Origin: Escherichia phage HZ2R8
Strand: one strand, 5' to 3'
Length of the DNA: 39,482 nucleotides
Sequence record: NC_047923.1
The translations under genes and the position numbers were made by a program. The notes under the pieces are model-generated. The model had not been told where the DNA came from. It worked only from the letters and a program-made list of their open reading frames with translations, and searched no databases. Of the stretch, positions 634 through 39,434 are shown piece by piece; the first letter of the stretch is position 1; every line of letters starts with the position of its first letter.

Positions 634-1080
634 ATGCTACAATTTTTACGTAAGCTGGTCCCTTGGGTTCTCGCTGGGATGCTATTCGGATGGGGATGGC
701 AACTTGGGGCAGACTCAATGGACGCCAAGTGGAAACAGGAGGTACAGAATGAGTACGTTAAGAGAGTTGAGGCTACAGCGAGCACTCAAAGAGCACTCAA
801 TGAAATATCGGCTAAGTATCAGGAAGACCTTGCCGCGCTGGAAGGGAGCACTGATAGGATTATTTCTGATTTGCGTAGCGACAATAAGCGGTTGCTCGTC
901 AGAGTCAAAACTACCGGAACCTCCGATGGTAAGTGTGGATTCGAGCCTGATGGTCGAGCCGAACTTGACGACCGAGATGCTAAACGTATTCTCGCAGTGA
1001 CCCAAAGAGGTGACGCGTGGATTCGCGCTCTACAGGATACCATACGTGAACTACAGCATAAGCAGGAGGTTAAACAATGA
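634..1080 (+). CDS. 18.5: i-spanin (Rz-like, gp18.5)
   Basis: 148-aa ORF with N-terminal TM segment; T7 gp18.5-like; GGGAGG SD. Confidence 0.85.
749..1000 (+). CDS. 18.7: o-spanin (Rz1-like, gp18.7), embedded in +1 frame inside 18.5
   Basis: Internal Met of ORF 704..1000 gives MSTLRELRL...ISGC (lipobox-like Cys) and a proline-rich tail; classic embedded Rz1 arrangement. Confidence 0.7.
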   Translation: MSTLRELRLQRALKEHSMKYRLSIRKTLPRWKGALIGLFLICVATISGCSSESKLPEPPMVSVDSSLMVEPNLTTEMLNVFSQ

Positions 1081-2849
1081 GGAAAGGTGTAGCCGCTCAG
1101 TCCAATCGTAATGCGCTCGTTGTGGCGCAACTAAAGGGTGACTTCGTGGCGTTCCTGTTCGTCTTATGGAAGGCGTTAAACCTTCCGGTGCCCACTAAGT
1201 GTCAAATTGATATGGCTAAGGTACTGGCGAATGGGGACAACAAGAAGTTCATCCTACAGGCTTTCCGTGGTATCGGGAAGTCGTTCATCACTTGTGCGTT
1301 CGTTGTGTGGTCCTTATGGCGGGACCCTCAGTTGAAGATACTTATCGTATCAGCTTCTAAAGAACGTGCAGACGCTAACTCCATATTCATCAAGAACATC
1401 ATTGACCTGCTGCCGTTTCTCAGTGAGTTGAAGCCGAGACCCGGACAGCGTGACTCTGTGATTAGTTTTGATGTTGGTCCTGCTAGTCCTGACCACTCGC
1501 CTAGTGTGAAATCAGTAGGTATCACTGGTCAGTTAACTGGTAGTCGTGCTGATATTATCATCGCGGATGACGTTGAGATTCCGTCTAACAGTGCTACTAT
1601 GGGTGCCCGTGAGAAGCTATGGACTCTCGTTCAGGAGTTCGCTGCATTACTTAAACCACTGCCTACTTCTCGTGTTATCTATCTTGGTACGCCTCAAACT
1701 GAGATGACTCTCTATAAGGAACTTGAAGATAACCGTGGGTACACCACTATCATCTGGCCTGCTCTATATCCAAGGACTCGTGAGGAGAATCTCTACTATG
1801 CCCAACGTCTGGCACCAATGCTCCGTGCTGAATACGAGGAGAATCCTGAGGCGCTGGCTGGCACTCCTACAGACCCTGTTCGATTCGATAGGGATGACCT
1901 ACGTGAACGTGAGTTGGAATACGGTAAGGCTGGCTTTACGTTGCAGTTCATGCTTAACCCGAACCTGAGTGATGCCGAGAAGTACCCTCTGAGGCTCCGT
2001 GACGCTATCGTAGCGGCCTTAGACTTAGAGAAGGCACCGATGCATTACCAATGGCTTCCGAACCGTCAGAACATCATTGAGGACCTTCCTAACGTGGGCC
2101 TTAAGGGTGATGACCTTCACACATACCATGAGTGCTCGAATAACTCTGGTCAGTATCAACAGAAGATTCTGGTCATTGACCCAAGTGGTCGTGGTAAGGA
2201 CGAAACAGGTTACGCTGTGCTGTACACCTTGAACGGTTACATCTACCTAATGGAAGCTGGTGGTTTCCGTGATGGCTACTCAGATAAGACCCTTGAGCTA
2301 CTCGCTAAGAAAGCTAAGCAATGGGGAGTCCAGACGGTTGTCTACGAGAGTAACTTCGGTGACGGTATGTTTGGTAAGGTATTCAGTCCTATCCTTCTTA
2401 AACACCACAACTGCGCTATGGAAGAGATTCGTGCTCGTGGTATGAAGGAGATGCGCATTTGTGATACCCTTGAGCCAGTCATGCAGACTCATCGCCTTGT
2501 CATTCGAGATGAGGTCATTAGGGCAGACTATCAGTCCGCTCGTGATGTAGACGGTAAGCATGACGTTAAGTATTCACTGTTCTACCAGATGACTCGTATC
2601 ACTCGCGAGAAAGGTGCTCTGGCACACGATGACCGATTGGATGCCCTTGCGTTAGGCGTTGAGTATCTCCGTGAGTCCATGCAGTTGGATTCCGTTAAGG
2701 TAGAAGGAGAGGTGCTTGCTGACTTCCTTGAGGAACACATGATGCGTCCTACGGTCTCTGCTACACATATCATTGAGATGTCTGTAGGAGGAGTTGATGT
2801 GTACTCTGAGGACGATGAGGGATACGGTACGTCTTTCATTGAGTGGTGA
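1077..2849 (+). CDS. 19: Terminase large subunit (gp19)
   Basis: 590-aa ORF, near-identical to T7 gp19 across its length; Walker A-like GIGKS. Confidence 0.95.
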
Positions 2850-2886
2850 TTTATGAGGCCAAGGAAGGCCGCTTTAAGGAGGTAAT

Positions 2887-3330
2887 ATGATAAGCAAGAA
2901 GAAGTATGTTATCGATAAGGAGACTGGTTGCTGGAACTTTAGGGGATGTAAGACGAAGACTGGTTATGGTCGCATTCGTGTGAACGGAGTCCATTGGATG
3001 GCCCACAGGTATTCCCTGAGTTGTCATCTAGGCAGACCGATAGCTGACGGAATGGTTGTGATGCACCTATGTGATAATCCTTCATGTGTTAACCCTGAGC
3101 ACCTTAAGGAAGGGACTCAGAAGGAGAACATAGAGGACTGCATCTCAAAAGGTCGTGCAACTAAGGCCACAGGTAAACGTGATGCAACTAAGAGAGACCC
3201 TAGCGAGGAACGTAAGGCTATAGTGATTCGAAGATACCATAAAGGCTGGACCGCAACGTCCATAGCGAGATACCATAAGCTCTCTGTGGCGTGGGTAAAG
3301 AGGGTCATTGAGGATTACCTAAGTGATTGA
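2887..3330 (+). CDS. HNH endonuclease (HNH_3-type, putative homing endonuclease) with C-terminal HTH-like tail
   Basis: 147-aa ORF; motif VVMHLCDNPSCVNPEHL; clear paralog of the 22818..23210 ORF; AAGGAGG SD; sits between gene 19 and phiOR where I recall no gene in T7. Confidence 0.8.
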   Translation: MISKKKYVIDKETGCWNFRGCKTKTGYGRIRVNGVHWMAHRYSLSCHLGRPIADGMVVMHLCDNPSCVNPEHLKEGTQKENIEDCISKGRATKATGKRDATKRDPSEERKAIVIRRYHKGWTATSIARYHKLSVAWVKRVIEDYLSD

Positions 3331-3381
3331 TATTTGAAATTAGTGATACAGGTCTAAGTATATGATTACAGACCATTATTC

Positions 3382-3404
3382 TAATTCGACTCACTATAGG
3401 GAGA
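3382..3404 (+). promoter_or_regulatory. Phage RNAP promoter phiOR (variant TAATTCGACTCACTATAGGGAGA)
   Basis: 21/23 match to the T7 promoter consensus; upstream of gene 19.5. Confidence 0.75.
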
Positions 3405-3495
3405 AGCCTACCTAAAGATTACTATAAGACTTAAAGTTACCTATAAGGTAGGTTGTTATTATTGTTAATACAACCAACATAAAGGAGGGAGACTC

Positions 3496-3645
3496 ATGTT
3501 CCGCTTATTGTTGAACCTACTGCGGCATAGAGTCACCTATCGCTTTCTTGTGGTACTTTGTGCTGCCCTTGGGTACGCATCACTTAATGGACACCTCAGT
3601 TCACTGGAGTCTACCGTTTGCTCTTTACTCACTTGTAGTGATTAA
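3496..3645 (+). CDS. 19.5: gp19.5-like small protein
   Basis: 49-aa ORF (below ORF-track cutoff) MFRLLLNLLRHRVTYRFLVV...; AAGGAGGG SD; just downstream of phiOR. Confidence 0.6.
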   Translation: MFRLLLNLLRHRVTYRFLVVLCAALGYASLNGHLSSLESTVCSLLTCSD

Positions 3646-3884
3646 GGTCTTCCTGACCGACTGACGGCTCACCGAGGGATTCAGCGGTATGATTGCATCA
3701 CACCACTTCATCCCTATAGAGTCAAGTCCTAAGGTATACCCGTAAAGAGCCTCTAATGGTCTATCCTAAGGTCTATACCTAAAGATAGGCCATCCTATCA
3801 GTGTCACCTAAAGAGGGTCTCAGAGAGGGCCTAAGGAGTCCCTAGAGGGTCCTTTAAAATATACCATAAAAATCTGAGTGACTA

Positions 3885-4038
3885 TCTCACAGTGTACGGA
3901 CCCAAAGTTCCCCCATAGGGGTACCTAAAGCCCAGCCAATCACCTAAAGTCAACCTTCGGTTGACCTTGAGGGTTCCCTAGGGGTTGGGTTGACCCTTGG
4001 GTTTACCTTTGAGTGTCTCCTTGTCCCTATCTGTTCAG
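3885..4038. repeat. Genome terminal repeat region (single collapsed copy) = concatemer junction / physical genome ends
   Basis: Begins TCTCACAGTGTACGGACC..., which I recall as the T7 left terminus, and runs to ...CCCTATCTGTTCAG; boundaries are inferred by analogy to T7, not determined. Confidence 0.6.
4029..4035 (+). promoter_or_regulatory. Class II pause/termination signal for phage RNAP (ATCTGTT) at the concatemer junction
   Basis: ATCTGTT heptamer at the right edge of the terminal repeat; the functional role is established for T7, here inferred. Confidence 0.45.
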
Positions 4039-4210
4039 TCTCCTAAAGTCACCTCCTAAAGTCCATCATCAAGCCAACGCCTAAAGAATACCCTTAAAGA
4101 CCCATCGAGTCAATCCCTATCTTAAAGATATTCTAAAGACCATCCTAAAGACCATCCTAAAGCTGCCTTGTTGTTACCTATAAAGATATTGCCTTTAATC
4201 ATCGTTATCC

Positions 4211-4233
4211 TAATTCGACTCACTATAGAGAGA
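4211..4233 (+). promoter_or_regulatory. Phage RNAP promoter phiOL (TAATTCGACTCACTATAGAGAGA)
   Basis: Consensus-like 23-mer near the genome left end. Confidence 0.75.
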
Positions 4234-4292
4234 GATAAGACTACTTAAAGGGGCCAAAGAGAGATTACCCCAAAATAATTTAAAAAAGAGTA

Positions 4293-4321
4293 TTGACTTA
4301 AAGAGTCCTACCGGTTACTAT
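4293..4321 (+). promoter_or_regulatory. Host sigma70 early promoter A1-like
   Basis: TTGACT - 17 bp - TACTAT. Confidence 0.7.
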
Positions 4322-4889: not shown

Positions 4890-5252
4890 ATGGCTATGTC
4901 TAACATGACTTATAACAACGTTTTCGATCACGCTTACGAAATGCTGAAAGAAAACATCCGTTATGATGACATCCGTGACGCTGATGACCTGCACGATGCA
5001 GTGCATATGGCTGCTGATAATGCTGTTCCGCACTACTACAGCGACATTTTCAGCGTAATGGCAAGCGAGGGCATTGACCTTGAGTTTGAGGATTCTGGTC
5101 TGATGCCGGACACCAAGGACGTAATCCGTATCCTGCAAGCACGTATCTATGAGCAATTAACGATTGACCTTTGGGAAGATGCAGAAGACTTACTGAACGA
5201 GTATCTTGAGGAAGTCGAGGAGTCAGAAGAGTACGAGGAGGACGAAGAGTAA
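4890..5252 (+). CDS. 0.3: Ocr (gp0.3) DNA-mimic anti-restriction protein
   Basis: 120-aa highly acidic [25 protein letters not shown]... matching T7 Ocr; first gene after host promoters. Confidence 0.9.
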
Positions 5253-5407
5253 TGGCTAACAACACCACGCAATACGGTCTGACCGCTCAAACTGTACTGT
5301 TCTATAGCGACATGGTGCGCTGTGGTTTTGACTGGTCGCTCGCAATGGAACACCTTAAGGAACTGTACGAAAACAACAAGGCAATAGCCTTGGAGTCTGC
5401 TGAGTGA
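5252..5407 (+). CDS. 0.4: gp0.4-like (FtsZ inhibitor in T7)
   Basis: 51-aa [29 protein letters not shown]..., start overlaps the 0.3 stop; below ORF-track cutoff, hand-translated. Confidence 0.65.
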   Translation: MANNTTQYGLTAQTVLFYSDMVRCGFDWSLAMEHLKELYENNKAIALESAE

Positions 5408-5410
5408 TAG

Positions 5411-5445
5411 GCTCAAGGTCGCTCAATATGAGTGGCCTTTATGAT
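5411..5445 (+). promoter_or_regulatory. RNase III-type processing hairpin (R0.5-like), copy 1
   Basis: GCTCAAGGTCGCTCAATATGAGTGGCCTTTATGATTA. Confidence 0.55.
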
Positions 5446-5476
5446 TATCACTTTAACATGCAATAGGACTAACACC

Positions 5477-5677
5477 ATGAGTAAACTTCTGGCAACATCT
5501 AAAATCAAAGGTCAATGCACTGTAACACTGCGAGAGTATGATCACGGGGCAATGGGTAGCACCTACGTTGTGCGATACGGTAAACAAGTCACACATTGGG
5601 TGAACGAGGTTTTGGCGCAAGAAGAATACCAAGCCTGCGTGATACACCAAGCAACATGTGCAGGCTGGAATGACTGA
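5477..5677 (+). CDS. Hypothetical early protein (0.5 position)
   Basis: ORF track 5432..5677 starts at GTG inside a hairpin; ATG at 5477 more plausible; no recognisable motif. Confidence 0.4.
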   Translation: MSKLLATSKIKGQCTVTLREYDHGAMGSTYVVRYGKQVTHWVNEVLAQEEYQACVIHQATCAGWND

Positions 5678-5728
5678 TGGCGCTATTTGCACGCACTGGA
5701 TAATAGCCTTCTAGTCTACCCAGTGATA

Positions 5729-5765
5729 AACTCAAGGTCTCTCCTAGCGAGTGGCCTTTATGATT
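5729..5765 (+). promoter_or_regulatory. RNase III-type processing hairpin, copy 2 (duplicate of R0.5-like)
   Basis: AACTCAAGGTCTCTCCTAGCGAGTGGCCTTTATGATTA; same flanks as copy 1. Confidence 0.55.
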
Positions 5766-5788
5766 ATCATTCTGAAACAGGTGTACCT

Positions 5789-6232
5789 ATGTCACAACAA
5801 GCTAAAACTTGCATAGCGTGCGGTGAGTTCAAGCCGTTGACGCAATACTACAAGAATGCCTCATCCCTTGACGGTCACATTGGGACGTGTAAGGCATGCA
5901 AGGCCAAACAACAAAGGGAACGAAGGGCACGGAAAAGCAACGCAGAGAGATACACAAAGGAGGCAGCACGCCGCCGCACCAATCATCTGCGAGTAAACTA
6001 CGGGATAGAAGAGGAAACCTATCGCAAGATGTACGAAGAACAGAACGGGGTCTGTGCAATATGTAAGCACCCTGAGAGTATTGTGGGAAGGAGTCTCTGT
6101 GTGGACCATTCACACATTACGGGAGAAGTCCGTGGGCTTCTATGCTCCAATTGCAACAGAGGGATTGGCTTACTCAAGGACTCCCCAGAGTTGGTACGAA
6201 ACGCTTTTCACTACTTAACCGGTAAACTATAG
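5789..6232 (+). CDS. Endonuclease VII-like HNH nuclease (putative homing endonuclease)
   Basis: ATG at 5789 with AGGTG SD; motifs CxxC...CxxC, CVDHSH, GxVRGLLCSNCN typical of the phage endonuclease VII family. Confidence 0.75.
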   Translation: MSQQAKTCIACGEFKPLTQYYKNASSLDGHIGTCKACKAKQQRERRARKSNAERYTKEAARRRTNHLRVNYGIEEETYRKMYEEQNGVCAICKHPESIVGRSLCVDHSHITGEVRGLLCSNCNRGIGLLKDSPELVRNAFHYLTGKL

Positions 6233-6242
6233 GATGCACATT

Positions 6243-6377
6243 ATGAAACACTACGTTATGCCTATCCACACCAAGAACGGCGCTACAGTTTGCACACCTG
6301 ATGGCTTCGCAATGAAACAACGAATCGAACGCCTTAAGCGCGAACTACGCACCAATCGCAAGCTCAACAATATCTAA
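6243..6377 (+). CDS. 0.6: gp0.6-like small early protein
   Basis: 44-aa ORF MKHYVMPIHTKNGATVCTPDGFAMKQRIERLKREL..., resembling T7 gp0.6A as recalled. Confidence 0.5.
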   Translation: MKHYVMPIHTKNGATVCTPDGFAMKQRIERLKRELRTNRKLNNI

Positions 6378-6405
6378 TCACATTTAACACTGGAGAACGC
6401 ACAAA

Positions 6406-22817: not shown

Positions 22818-23210
22818 ATGGAGAATTGCATCGAGTGGACTAAAGGTACTAACCAGAAGGGTTACGGTAGGAAGTGGGTTGATGGTAAGTTGGTTTCTGC
22901 GCATCGCCACGCCTATGAAGAAGTACACGGTCCTATTCCAGATGGTCTTGTAGTGATGCATCTCTGTGACAATCCTAGATGTTATAACGTGGAGCACTTG
23001 ACTCTTGGGACTCATGCAGACAACTCAGATGACAAGGTGCGTAAAGGTAGACAAGCAAAAGGTGAAACTCTAAGTAATAAACTTACTGAGACAGATGTTT
23101 TGACCATTCGCGCCTTAGACCTACCACATGCTGAGATAGCCAAGATATACGGTGTTAGTCAATCCACCATAACTCGCATAATTAGACGCGACACATGGAG
23201 GCATATCTAA
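22818..23210 (+). CDS. 7.7: HNH endonuclease (gp7.7 position; HNH_3-type with C-terminal HTH)
   Basis: 130-aa ORF; motif VVMHLCDNPRCYNVEHL; paralog of 2887..3330; stop overlaps the gene 8 start. Confidence 0.8.
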   Translation: MENCIEWTKGTNQKGYGRKWVDGKLVSAHRHAYEEVHGPIPDGLVVMHLCDNPRCYNVEHLTLGTHADNSDDKVRKGRQAKGETLSNKLTETDVLTIRALDLPHAEIAKIYGVSQSTITRIIRRDTWRHI

Positions 23211-37598: not shown

Positions 37599-39434
37599 AT
37601 GGCTAACGTAATTAAGACCGTTTTGACTTACCAGTTAGATGGTTCGAATCGAGATTTTAACATCCCGTTTGAATATCTAGCCCGTAAGTTTGTAGTGGTA
37701 ACTCTCATTGGTGTTGACCGTAAGGTCCTCACACTCAATACAGATTATCGCTTTGCTACGCGTACTACTATCTCGCTAACCAAATCTTGGGGACCTGCGG
37801 ATGGTTACACTACCATTGAGCTGCGCCGAGTAACCTCCACGACTGACCGTCTGGTTGACTTTACGGATGGCTCGATCCTGCGTGCGTATGACCTTAACGT
37901 GGCTCAGATTCAGACTATGCATGTGGCAGAAGAGGCCCGTGACTTAACTGCTGATACTATTGGTGTCAACAATGATGGTCACTTGGATGCCCGTGGTCGT
38001 CGTATCGTGAACCTAGCGAACGCTGTGGATGACCGTGACGCTGTTCCGCTTGGTCAACTAAAGACGATGAACCAGAACTCTTGGCAAGCTCGCAATGAGA
38101 CTCTACAGTTCCGTAATGACGCTGAGGGTTTCCGTAATGACGCTGAGCGGTTCATGAACTCTGCTAGTGCTTCGTCTGATTCGGCTAACTCCGCTAAGGA
38201 TGCGGCCCATCAATCCAACGTGGAAGCGTATCAACATCGCCTTGCTGCGGAAACAGCTAAGACCGCTGCTCAGCAGTCAAACGTAGAGTCGTACACTTGG
38301 TCTAATAAGTCCAAGGAGTACGCCGAGTCTGCCTCTATGGATGCTGCGAAAGCTGAGCAACAAGCTAACCGCGCTAAGACCGAGGCTGACAAACTAGCTA
38401 ATACCAACGCGTTTGCTGCTACCTTGAAGACAGTTCAGGGTGGGACCGTTGAGTGGCACAAAGAGTGGGGACTCAAGGCTAACAGCTTCGATGCACTCAG
38501 TGATATTACTGCCCTAAACGGTACGATGAACTCTATGGACGTTCGAGCGTCTCGTAACGTAGCAGTAGCTGGTGTGACTTACCCTCAGGGGGGCATTCAG
38601 CAGACTATCGGTACTAACCAGTGGAACCATCTTGTACGGCTGCATATTAACGGTAGACCAAGCTGGGTGGGGGATAAACAAGGACTCCACTTAGCATGGA
38701 ACGAGAATGGAAGTGGTGAGGCAGACTTAATCTGCAACCAAGGTGCTGGGGCTGGAGGCTTCCTCTTTAGGACTGTGAACGACAAGGACAACGTAGAGAT
38801 TGGTCGTGTCACCTTTACTGGTGCTGGTGCTGTGCACGCTAACCACTTCCAAGTCGGCCATAGTCGCATGGAGTCCAACGGGAACGTAGTGGCTGGTAGC
38901 GTACTGTATGCTGGGAATGGTTCCAGTCAAATGGCTCCAGACGGGAACGTCCATGGTCCTCTTTGGGGCGGCTGGCTGTCCAGCTACCTGAACAATAGGT
39001 ACCTTTTCGCTAAGCCGCCTGGAGGGGTTCAGTTATTTACCTCTCGCGGTGGGGACTACCTTGAGGGCGTTGTGGATAACCAAGCCGTTGGGTTCCGGTG
39101 GTTCCTATCAGACAGAAGGCTTAAGGAAAACATAAATGTTCTACGCTCAGCCGACGATATGCTAAATATCATCCGGTCGTACATCCCAGTCACGTACAAG
39201 TATAAGGATTCGGAGTATACTGATAACCGTGGGAGAACTATTACTGTTACTGGTAAGAAGTCTCGTGCAGGCTTCATTACTCAGGACTTGATTAGAATCT
39301 GGCCCGAAGCAGTGGATGTTCTATCGGACGGTATGCAGTCCCCAGACCCTAACCAAATCATCGGTGGACTAATGCTTCTTGTTAAGAACCTAGATGAGCG
39401 GGTTCAGGAGCTAGAGAAGAAGAATAACGTTTAA
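37599..39434 (+). CDS. 17: Tail fiber protein (gp17), mosaic with C-terminal intramolecular chaperone (S74-like) domain
   Basis: 611-aa ORF; N-terminal ~160 aa match the T7 gp17 tail-attachment region; the distal part does not match what I recall of T7; C-terminal ~108 aa from SDRRLKENI carry the chaperone-of-endosialidase signature (YKYKD, GFITQD, PEAV, LxxLxERVQELE). Confidence 0.9.
   Translation: MANVIKTVLTYQLDGSNRDFNIPFEYLARKFVVVTLIGVDRKVLTLNTDYRFATRTTISLTKSWGPADGYTTIELRRVTSTTDRLVDFTDGSILRAYDLNVAQIQTMHVAEEARDLTADTIGVNNDGHLDARGRRIVNLANAVDDRDAVPLGQLKTMNQNSWQARNETLQFRNDAEGFRNDAERFMNSASASSDSANSAKDAAHQSNVEAYQHRLAAETAKTAAQQSNVESYTWSNKSKEYAESASMDAAKAEQQANRAKTEADKLANTNAFAATLKTVQGGTVEWHKEWGLKANSFDALSDITALNGTMNSMDVRASRNVAVAGVTYPQGGIQQTIGTNQWNHLVRLHINGRPSWVGDKQGLHLAWNENGSGEADLICNQGAGAGGFLFRTVNDKDNVEIGRVTFTGAGAVHANHFQVGHSRMESNGNVVAGSVLYAGNGSSQMAPDGNVHGPLWGGWLSSYLNNRYLFAKPPGGVQLFTSRGGDYLEGVVDNQAVGFRWFLSDRRLKENINVLRSADDMLNIIRSYIPVTYKYKDSEYTDNRGRTITVTGKKSRAGFITQDLIRIWPEAVDVLSDGMQSPDPNQIIGGLMLLVKNLDERVQELEKKNNV

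What the first reader, a model, noticed from the sequence alone, without database searches (positions are those of the whole stretch)
2850..3405. Extra HNH endonuclease between large terminase gene and phiOR, near the right genome end
A 147-aa HNH_3-type endonuclease with its own strong SD occupies an intergenic slot that I recall as empty (about 100 bp) in T7. It is a clear paralog of the gp7.7-position HNH at 22818..23210: both share VVMHLCDNPxCxNxEHL and a C-terminal HTH-like tail. That points to a free-standing homing endonuclease that has duplicated or moved within the genome. Its position beside terminase and about 550 bp from the packaging terminus is notable, since HNH proteins assist terminase in some cos phages, though nothing in the sequence requires that here.
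Basis: partly seen in the sequence, partly recalled or inferred. Interest (0 to 1): 0.55.

Follow-up and report, generated by a model that had tools for sequence, protein, structure and literature searches.

The report
Known T7-group homing endonuclease cassette
The extra gene after the large terminase gene is a real, intact HNH nuclease already annotated in about two dozen T7-like phages (gene 19.4 of phage 13a); it looks like an ordinary free-standing homing endonuclease, not a terminase helper or a recent copy of gene 7.7.

Summary
ORF 2887..3330 (+) encodes a 147-aa HNH_3 nuclease with a C-terminal helix-turn-helix and a strong SD. It lies between gene 19 (stop at 2849) and phiOR (3382..3404), 554 bp before the terminal repeat.

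The gene is already public. It is gene 19.4 of phage 13a, and the HZP2 copy, annotated "HNH endonuclease" in RefSeq, is 99.3% identical.

It is not a simple insertion. A 617-bp cassette (2856..3472) replaces the whole 225-242-bp intergenic region of relatives that lack the gene. Only the 23-bp promoter core is shared.

Presence is patchy: 5 of 12 unbiased Teseptimavirus loci carry it. In 13 carriers versus 13 non-carriers, no flanking SNP tracks the cassette.

The gene is under purifying selection (dN/dS about 0.09) and all motif residues are invariant. The predicted fold matches I-HmuI best.

Homologues at 49-60% full-length identity (75% over the nuclease domain in one) sit in the same slot in other Studiervirinae genera. 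gp7.7 is only 36% identical, so that split is ancient, not a recent duplication.

A terminase-helper role is not supported. Homing itself remains inferred. Low novelty.

The parts
1077..2849 (+). Gene 19, terminase large subunit (left flank). Its last ~60 nt plus TTTATG form the conserved left recombination anchor.
   Evidence: The ORF is 590 aa. Identity to T7-group TerL is 98-99%. Pfam assigns Terminase-T7_RNaseH-like in homologous loci.
2856..3472 (+). The 617-bp presence/absence cassette. It contains the SD, the HNH ORF, a spacer, its own phiOR and the 19.5 leader. It replaces a 225-242-bp non-homologous allele in relatives without the gene.
   Evidence: Breakpoints were read from alignments. 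Only the promoter core aligns between the two alleles. The piece after the HNH ORF occurs in full only in HNH-carrying records.
2876..2883 (+). Shine-Dalgarno AAGGAGGT, 4 nt (including its final T) before the ATG at 2887.
   Evidence: Read directly from the sequence. It is conserved in all HNH-carrying relatives.
2887..3330 (+). Gene 19.4 homologue, a 147-aa HNH_3 nuclease. The nuclease domain is about residues 1-90, followed by a low-confidence linker at about 91-103 and an HTH at 104-147.
   Evidence: Domain and family matches. Invariant residues H60, N69, H72, N81 and C15, H40, C62, C67. AF2 model pLDDT 90. Best PDB fold match I-HmuI. dN/dS about 0.09.
3137..3280 (+). Linker and first part of the DNA-binding region. 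This block differs between cassette alleles: 43% nt identity to phage 13a, against 91% for the nuclease part.
3382..3404 (+). The phiOR promoter (T7 RNA polymerase type), carried inside the cassette. +1 is at 3399.
   Evidence: Exact consensus match, one of 11 phage-promoter matches in the window. It is annotated as phiOR at the equivalent site in 13a and T7.
3496..3645 (+). Gene 19.5 (right flank). Its SD and 5' end form the conserved right recombination anchor.
   Evidence: PHROG 2193, E 1.8e-24. Alignments.
3885..4042 (.). Single collapsed copy of the terminal repeat (concatemer junction). The window is a circular permutation of the genome.
   Evidence: T7 TR positions 1-141 align to 3885..4023 at 93% identity. 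Left-end unique sequence follows from 4040.
22818..23210 (+). Gene 7.7 HNH_3 + HTH nuclease. It is a distant homologue (36%) of 19.4 and the orthologue of T7 gp7.7 (70% aa).

Best explanation
Window 2856..3472 is one allele of a two-allele cassette polymorphism in T7-group phages.

What it encodes. The cassette carries a free-standing HNH homing endonuclease. An I-HmuI-like nuclease domain is joined by a flexible linker to a C-terminal helix-turn-helix. The cassette also carries its own copy of the phiOR promoter, so gene 19.5 stays expressed.

Expression (inferred). The gene has no promoter of its own. It is read as the last cistron of the late transcript that covers genes 17 to 19, and is translated from a strong SD.

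Proposed mechanism (inferred, not shown). In a cell co-infected with a relative carrying the short allele, the enzyme nicks or cuts that genome in or near the 19/19.5 intergenic region. The carrier genome lacks this sequence and would therefore be immune. The T7 recombination machinery then repairs the break from the carrier genome. It uses the nearly invariant end of gene 19 and the start of 19.5 as homology arms, and so copies the cassette in.

Origin. The gene is an old, slot-faithful lineage of Studiervirinae. It is not a recent copy of gene 7.7.
For: Family and integrity:
- HNH_3 and HTH_23 score above Pfam cut-offs. PHROG 6254 matches over the full length.
- H60, N64, N69, H72, N81 and C15, H40, C62, C67 are invariant in 39 homologues.
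- The AF2 model has pLDDT 90. Its best PDB match is the HNH homing endonuclease I-HmuI (1u3e, E 6.6e-4, probability 1.00), followed by I-PpoI.
- dN/dS is about 0.09 among alleles, against about 0.03 for TerL.

Free-standing status:
- The gene is intergenic and there is no Rfam intron or other RNA family match.

Patchy distribution at a fixed site:
- 27 of 182 matching records hold the cassette; the listed remainder match the flanks only.
- 5 of 12 unbiased Teseptimavirus loci, and 2 of 11 unbiased loci in the T3/Berlin-like cluster, carry it. Carriers are interleaved with non-carriers when clustered by TerL.
- Both alleles occur in one metagenome (L035 and L043) and in phage pairs from one sewage source.

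Sharp boundaries and non-homologous alleles.

No flanking SNP is linked to cassette state in 13 versus 13 genomes. The largest allele-frequency difference is 0.54, equal to the permutation null. This implies many independent exchanges.

The window and HZP2 differ at 1 of 717 nt across 2769..3485, while gene 19 is about 6% divergent (dS 0.27).

Same-slot homologues occur in Helsettvirus, Berlinvirus, T3-like and Pectobacterium phages.

Published context:
- Free-standing HNH and GIY-YIG genes sit in intergenic regions next to conserved genes, often lack their own promoter, and sometimes carry the promoter of the downstream gene (PMC2988022).
- Homing endonuclease genes cluster near terminase and other essential genes (PMC10448857).
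Against: - No cleavage activity, target site or biased inheritance has been shown for this gene. The paper library holds nothing on gp19.4.
- There is no co-conversion signal. Flanks are in linkage equilibrium with the cassette right up to the breakpoints.
- Synonymous diversity inside the HNH gene (dS 0.17-0.49) is as deep as in gene 19 (0.25-0.37). This is an old polymorphism, not a recent sweep.
- Strong purifying selection, and a nuclease domain about as conserved across genera as TerL (about 71% by eye, against 79%), fit a function useful to the phage equally well.
- T7-group genomes are mosaic throughout. Ordinary recombination alone could shuffle the cassette (one search shows other low-divergence blocks).
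Confidence: 0.72

Rival explanations
1. The gene is a domesticated accessory nuclease or DNA-binding protein that benefits the phage. Possible roles include damaging co-infecting competitors, countering a host defence, or acting at phiOR or its associated origin. On this view it is kept by selection in some ecological settings and moves only by ordinary recombination.
For: - dN/dS is about 0.09, and cassette diversity is as old as that of the flanks.
- The nuclease domain is conserved across genera at a level close to TerL.
- There is no co-conversion signal.
- The literature notes that homing endonuclease-like genes can be co-opted (PMC10448857, discussion; PMC13096335, abstract).
Against: - The gene is absent from T7 and from at least half of sampled close relatives, which are fully viable.
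- Its architecture and best structural match are those of a homing endonuclease.
- No specific function can be named from the sequence.
Confidence: 0.17
2. The gene is a terminase-associated HNH that assists DNA cutting during packaging, like HK97 gp74.
For: The gene lies immediately after the large terminase gene and 554 bp before the terminal repeat. HNH proteins are needed by some cos-phage terminases (quoted in PMC8861465 and PMC10448857).
Against: - Relatives with TerL 98-99% identical lack the gene. T7 itself lacks it.
- The terminase is the T7 type (PF22530), not the Terminase_1 type said to need an HNH.
- The domain is HNH_3 plus an HTH and resembles I-HmuI. The Pfam scan lists no match to PF01844, the family I recall for gp74.
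- These phages use direct terminal repeats, not cos ends (established T7 biology).
Confidence: 0.03
3. The gene is a recent intragenomic duplicate of gene 7.7 that transposed to the right end.
For: The two genes share domain order and the VVMHLCDNPxCxNxEHL motif. Identity is 36%, E 8e-21.
Against: - The two genes have different best PHROGs (6254 versus 59).
- Same-slot homologues in other genera are much closer, at 49-60% full-length identity and 75% over the nuclease domain in one.
- T7 2.8 and 7.7 are 49% identical to each other, but only 39-45% identical to 19.4.
- About 1400 phage records hold comparable HNH_3 homologues.
Confidence: 0.03

Closest known systems
Gene 19.4 of Escherichia phage 13a (YP_002003987, 'HNH endonuclease') and its copies in HZP2, CICC 80001, N30, IME390, JeanTinguely ('putative homing endonuclease'), Rambo and Vi06
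   Same: Same slot, same cassette borders and same flanking phiOR allele. Amino-acid identity is 99.3% to HZP2, 92-96% to the other window-type alleles, 82% to Rambo and 67-69% to 13a and Vi06.
   Different: The 13a/Vi06 alleles carry a different linker and DNA-binding block: 43% nt identity over 3137..3280, against 91% in the nuclease part. None of these genes has been characterised experimentally as far as the paper library shows.
I-HmuI (SPO1 intron-encoded HNH homing endonuclease, PDB 1u3e)
   Same: It is the best structural match to the predicted model (E 6.6e-4, probability 1.00, 103 aligned columns, 24% identity). From my own knowledge of the 1u3e paper, I-HmuI also has an HNH nuclease followed by a C-terminal HTH and acts as a monomeric nickase.
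   Different: I-HmuI is encoded inside a group I intron, whereas this gene is free-standing. There is no detectable sequence match to any PDB chain. TM-score is only 0.46. This protein has four invariant Cys/His residues that may form a zinc site; that is inferred, not tested.
T4 Mob free-standing HNH endonucleases (e.g. MobE)
   Same: Both have an HNH nuclease fused to a distinct C-terminal DNA-binding region. Both are intergenic, next to conserved essential genes, and transcribed from upstream phage promoters. In both, promoters for downstream genes can travel with the endonuclease gene (PMC2988022; PMC2790892).
   Different: This is a different phage family and a different DNA-binding domain (an HTH, not the zinc-finger type noted for Mob in PMC10448857). 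MobE homing has been shown experimentally; nothing has been shown here.
T7 gp7.7 and gp2.8 (HNH_3 genes of T7)
   Same: Same Pfam family and same domain order.
   Different: They are only 36-45% identical to 19.4, belong to a different PHROG and occupy different slots.
HK97 gp74-type terminase-associated HNH
   Same: It is an HNH nuclease encoded next to terminase genes.
   Different: It is a different HNH subfamily and lacks an HTH. It is essential and conserved in its phages, lies upstream of the terminase genes, and serves cos-cutting Terminase_1 enzymes (as quoted in PMC8861465 and PMC10448857). None of these features holds here.

Membership tests
HNH / His-Me finger nuclease (Pfam HNH_3, PF13392) | Profile match above the curated cut-off | tested here: met
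   35.2 bits against a cut-off of 24.8, residues 39-81. PHROG 6254 E 3e-60.
HNH / His-Me finger nuclease (Pfam HNH_3, PF13392) | Catalytic His and Asn residues of the motif retained | tested here: met
   H60, N64, N69, H72 and N81 are invariant across 39 homologues spanning 35-93% identity. Which residue binds the metal is not assigned.
HNH / His-Me finger nuclease (Pfam HNH_3, PF13392) | Beta-beta-alpha metal-finger fold | tested here: met
   The AF2 model has pLDDT 90, with strands 57-60 and 73-76 followed by helix 78-87. The top PDB matches are I-HmuI and I-PpoI. This rests on a predicted structure only.
HNH / His-Me finger nuclease (Pfam HNH_3, PF13392) | Metal-dependent DNA nicking or cleavage | not testable with these tools
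   Needs purified protein.
Free-standing homing endonuclease gene | Nuclease domain joined to a separate DNA-binding domain | tested here: met
   HNH_3 at residues 39-81 and HTH_23 at 104-145 (27.4 bits against a cut-off of 24.6), joined by a linker with low pLDDT.
Free-standing homing endonuclease gene | Intergenic, not inside an intron or intein | tested here: met
   The gene lies between the gene 19 stop (2849) and gene 19.5 (3496). There is no Rfam match in 2400..4300.
Free-standing homing endonuclease gene | Sporadic presence at one fixed locus among close relatives | tested here: met
   27 of 182 records. 5 of 12 unbiased Teseptimavirus loci, interleaved with non-carriers by TerL. Breakpoints are identical in all carriers.
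Free-standing homing endonuclease gene | Co-conversion of flanking markers with the gene | tested here: inconclusive
   No flank SNP is associated with cassette state in 13 versus 13 genomes. One pair (window and HZP2) shares a near-identical tract of about 1 kb centred on the cassette, but other low-divergence blocks exist in the same comparison.
Free-standing homing endonuclease gene | Site-specific cleavage of the allele that lacks the gene, with immunity of the carrier | not testable with these tools
   Indirect only. No carrier-specific SNP exists in gene 19 or 19.5, so a sequence-based immunity site would have to lie in the replaced intergenic segment.
Free-standing homing endonuclease gene | Inheritance above the input ratio in mixed infection | not testable with these tools
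   Needs co-infection crosses.
HK97 gp74-type terminase-associated HNH | Conserved in all relatives that share the terminase | tested here: not met
   Absent from T7, EG1 and many others with TerL 98-99% identical.
HK97 gp74-type terminase-associated HNH | Partner terminase of the Terminase_1 / cos-cutting type | tested here: not met
   TerL homologues carry PF22530 Terminase-T7_RNaseH-like. The genome has a direct terminal repeat.
Recent paralogue (duplicate) of gene 7.7 | Closer to the genome's own 7.7 than to genes elsewhere | tested here: not met
   Identity to 7.7 is 36%, against 49-60% full-length identity to same-slot genes of other genera and 75% over the nuclease domain in one. The two genes have different PHROGs.

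The most novel reading that the evidence does not exclude
The mobile unit may be a composite of nuclease plus promoter, not just a selfish nuclease gene. On this reading each transfer swaps the entire phiOR control region between T7-like phages. That region comprises the promoter context, the AT-rich leader linked in T7 to a secondary origin, and transcription into the concatemer junction. The HNH nick near phiOR could itself contribute to replication initiation or concatemer processing. That would explain why the gene stays under strong purifying selection and stays faithful to this one slot across several Studiervirinae genera.
Probability: 0.06. Interest if true: 0.55.

Novelty: already known. 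Interest (0 to 1): 0.15.

Why it matters
It matters little beyond correct annotation. The gene is a known, though uncharacterised, accessory gene of T7-group phages.

Three modest points are useful:
- The polymorphism is a clean two-allele cassette with defined borders and natural pairs of carriers and non-carriers. It would make an easy experimental system for homing in T7, where little has been tested.
- The cassette carries its own phiOR. Apart from a short stretch just downstream that does not score above shuffled controls, only the 23-bp promoter core is shared between the alleles. This suggests that the rest of the intergenic sequence is dispensable.
- People who engineer T7-like phages should know that this slot tolerates about 600 bp of foreign sequence.

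Tried and rejected
- PDB sequence search with the protein found nothing meaningful (best E 1.2, an unrelated Csy1). A predicted structure plus Foldseek was used instead.
- NCBIfam gave only sub-threshold noise.
- An Rfam scan of 2400..4300 found nothing, so no intron or known RNA is involved.
- RNA folds were not clearly better than shuffled sequence. The three pieces tested were the one before the ORF, the spacer before phiOR and the 19.5 leader (z = -0.9, -1.8, -0.9). No structure is claimed.
- The sigma-70 promoter and intrinsic terminator scan found nothing relevant.
- I looked for HNH remnants or other homology between the long and short alleles. Only the promoter core aligns. The next-best local alignment scores 22, against a shuffle mean of 19.7 and maximum of 28.
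- I looked for carrier-specific SNPs in the flanks, as a co-conversion or immunity signal. None was found.
- The apparent truncation of the fPS-7 homologue (118 aa) comes from an ambiguous base (X in the translation). It is not evidence of decay.
- Klebsiella phage M2-DAzarov appeared to have a right-end homologue. It is really in the gene 3/3.5 slot of a permuted record, so it is not a same-slot case.
- A paper search for gp19.4, gene 19.4 and phage 13a found no functional study.

Full report
**What the window is**

The window is a circularly permuted, complete genome of a T7-group phage (Teseptimavirus).
- It is 90-94% identical in DNA to EG1, HZP2, CICC 80001 and T7 over 24 kb.
- It runs from gene 17.5 through genes 18, 18.5 and 19 and the right end. 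A single collapsed terminal repeat lies at 3885..~4042, and the left end follows, with ocr at 4890.

**Check of the observation**

- ORF 2887..3330 (+) encodes 147 aa, with AAGGAGGT 4 nt upstream of the ATG.
- Pfam gives HNH_3 (35.2 bits, cut-off 24.8) and HTH_23 (27.4 bits, cut-off 24.6).
- PHROG 6254 'HNH endonuclease' matches end to end, E 3e-60.
- Gene 19 stops at 2849 and the phiOR 23-mer is at 3382..3404.
- In T7 the same interval is 99 bp: gene 19 ends at 39130 and phiOR +1 is at 39229.
- The 7.7-slot ORF at 22818..23210 is homologous, with 36% identity over 127 aa (E 8e-21), the shared motif and an HTH tail.
- The distance from the HNH stop codon to the terminal repeat is 554 bp.

**It is an already annotated gene**

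- Megablast of 2500..3700 finds the full interval in 27 of 182 phage records.
- The closest are AH67C600_Q5 (98.3%) and HZP2 (97.9%).
- Phage 13a names the gene 19.4, 'HNH endonuclease', followed by an annotated phiOR and gene 19.5.
- RefSeq calls the HZP2, CICC 80001, N30 and IME390 copies 'HNH endonuclease'. JeanTinguely's is 'putative homing endonuclease' and Rambo's is 'homing endonuclease'.
- The HZP2 protein is 99.3% identical.
- No paper in the library mentions gp19.4, so the gene is known but uncharacterised.

**Anatomy of the polymorphism**

Alignment with relatives that lack the gene shows that this is not an insertion into the T7 intergenic region.
- Homology stops right after GAGTGGTGATTTATG (window 2855/2856) and resumes at ACCAACATAAAGGAGG (window 3472/3473).
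- Between these points carriers have 612-620 bp and non-carriers have 225-242 bp.
- The two alleles share only the 23-bp promoter core. The next-best local alignment is no better than shuffled sequence.
- The 148 bp after the HNH stop, which include phiOR and the 19.5 leader, occur in full only in the same HNH-carrying records (30 records).
- The unit is therefore a 617-bp cassette, 2856..3472, that brings its own phiOR.
- There is no Rfam match and no convincing RNA structure in it.

**Is the protein intact and functional?**

- Across 39 homologues spanning 35-93% identity, C15, G26, A39, H40, H60, C62, N64, C67, N69, H72, L73 and N81 are invariant.
- An AlphaFold2 model has mean pLDDT 90. 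It shows a beta-rich N-terminal part, strands 57-60 and 73-76 followed by helix 78-87, a low-confidence linker around residues 91-103, and three C-terminal helices.
- Foldseek against the PDB puts the HNH homing endonuclease I-HmuI first (1u3e, E 6.6e-4, probability 1.00). I-PpoI follows.
- Among six window-type alleles, dN/dS is about 0.09 overall: 0.02-0.09 in the nuclease domain and 0.10-0.28 in the C-terminal part. The neighbouring terminase gene gives about 0.03.
- The gene is under purifying selection and is not decaying.

**Distribution**

- I fetched 80 IMG/VR loci using the terminase protein. The Teseptimavirus cluster (TerL 96.6-99.2% identical to the window) has 5 carriers among 12 loci.
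- The T3/Berlin-like cluster has 2 carriers among 11 unbiased loci. The 47 Klebsiella KP32-like loci have none.
- Carriers and non-carriers are interleaved by gene 19 identity. The window's closest gene 19 belongs to EG1, which lacks the gene (95.7%).
- Both alleles occur in one metagenome (L035 and L043, both from 3300045988).
- Both alleles also occur in phage pairs from the same source: JeanTinguely and JacobBurckhardt, and vB_Yep_9 and vB_Yep_15.
- The 15% figure understates the natural frequency, because many of those records are laboratory T7 variants.

**Linkage with the flanks**

- I compared 13 carriers with 13 non-carriers across all 1.77 kb of gene 19 and 420 nt to the right.
- No variable site is associated with cassette state. 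The largest allele-frequency difference is 0.54. Label permutation gives a mean maximum of 0.52, and 55% of permutations reach the observed value.
- Two things follow. The cassette has been exchanged many times, with breakpoints very close to its borders. There is also no carrier-specific 'immunity' change in gene 19 or 19.5.
- If the enzyme spares its own genome through sequence difference, the target must therefore lie in the replaced intergenic segment or across a breakpoint. This is an inference.
- As an example of recent exchange, the window and HZP2 differ at 1 of 717 positions across 2769..3485. Their gene 19 sequences differ by about 6% (dS 0.27 against 0 in the HNH gene).
- Other low-divergence blocks exist in the same comparison, so this fits homing but does not prove it.
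- Synonymous diversity inside the HNH gene (0.17-0.49) is as deep as in gene 19. The polymorphism is old.

**Relation to gene 7.7 and to other genera**

- Homologues at 49-60% full-length identity (75% over the nuclease domain in AKS2022HT77GU) occupy exactly the same slot in four groups. The slot lies right after the large terminase gene and before a phage promoter and a 19.5-like gene.
- The four groups are Helsettvirus fPS-26 and fPS-7, Berlinvirus Yepe2, a T3-like phage (D226) and Pectobacterium phage MA1A.
- The nuclease domain is well conserved among them, while the C-terminal DNA-binding part comes in at least three or four types.
- Within Teseptimavirus, the 13a/Vi06 allele is 91% identical to the window in the nuclease-coding part. 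It is only 43% identical over 3137..3280 and 73-81% in the non-promoter downstream parts. This is an internal block swap.
- By contrast, gp7.7 is 36% identical and belongs best to PHROG 59 rather than 6254. T7's own 2.8 and 7.7 are 49% identical to each other.
- Genes 19.4 and 7.7 are therefore distant members of one superfamily. They are not products of a recent duplication within this genome.

**Mechanism**

Shown:
- The gene is an intact HNH_3 + HTH nuclease gene under selection.
- It sits in a discrete cassette with its own phiOR.
- It is patchily distributed and freely recombining.

Inferred:
- The gene is expressed late. No phage promoter or terminator lies between phi17 and the gene.
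- In mixed infections it probably nicks or cuts the short allele. Repair from the carrier genome, through the conserved end of gene 19 and start of 19.5, then copies the cassette.
- This matches what is described for free-standing HNH and GIY-YIG endonucleases of T4. Those include promoter-less cassettes and cases where the downstream gene's promoter travels with the endonuclease (PMC2988022). It also matches the reported clustering of such genes near terminase genes (PMC10448857).
- A polymorphic HNH gene next to the terminase gene has also been reported in another Autographiviridae phage, Hafnia phage Ca (PMC8861465).

**Rivals**

- A phage-beneficial accessory function cannot be excluded. 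Strong purifying selection, an old polymorphism and the lack of a co-conversion signal all fit it.
- The terminase-helper idea fails on three counts. Relatives with near-identical terminase lack the gene. The terminase is not the Terminase_1 type. The HNH subfamily and architecture differ.

**Verdict**

The feature is real and correctly located. It is an ordinary, already annotated homing-endonuclease-type gene. Interest is low. The most useful additions here are the exact cassette borders, the finding that the cassette carries its own phiOR, and the correction of the 'recent paralogue' and 'simple insertion' readings.

Noticed in passing
window 5687..6232 (+): A 181-aa endonuclease VII-like ORF (PHROG 2633, E 5.7e-40) lies in the early region after ocr. 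It is a second nuclease gene of the homing-endonuclease type. The surrounding 5250..6400 is highly mosaic: no phage record covers 80% of it. HZP2 has the gene, annotated 'endonuclease VII'.
   Followed up: partly
window 5432..5677 (+): This 81-aa ORF falls in a block of about 320 bp (about 5430..5750) that is absent from the otherwise close relative HZP2 (gap columns). It is another presence/absence difference in the early region.
   Followed up: no
whole window compared with T7 (L113): The window has no homologue of T7's other nuclease-like genes 2.8, 3.8 and 5.3. It does have 7.7, 19.4 and the endonuclease VII-like gene. The set of such genes therefore differs strongly between phages that are about 90% identical overall.
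   Followed up: partly
window 22818..23210 (+): The gene 7.7 protein is only 70% identical to T7 gp7.7, while the terminase is about 98.5% identical. This nuclease gene also evolves, or is exchanged, much faster than its surroundings.
   Followed up: no
window 2853..2885 (+): A 10-codon mini-ORF (ATG AGG CCA ... TAA) starts at the conserved ATG 3 nt after the gene 19 stop codon and ends 1 nt before the HNH start. In Vi06 the equivalent reading frame, which starts with GTG, is fused in frame to the HNH ORF (162 aa). In the short allele the same ATG opens only ATG CAT TAA.
   Followed up: no
window 3885..4042: There is only one copy of the terminal repeat, and the window reads through the right end into the left end. 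The assembly is therefore a circular permutation of a linear genome with direct repeats.
   Followed up: yes
L005 (Yersinia phage AKS2022HT77GU_phi) and P0035 (vB_YpP_T3), linker of the same-slot HNH: These homologues carry a Gly/Ser-rich expansion (SGSSGDSSGGSSG) in the linker between the nuclease and the DNA-binding domain. This suggests the linker tolerates changes in length.
   Followed up: no
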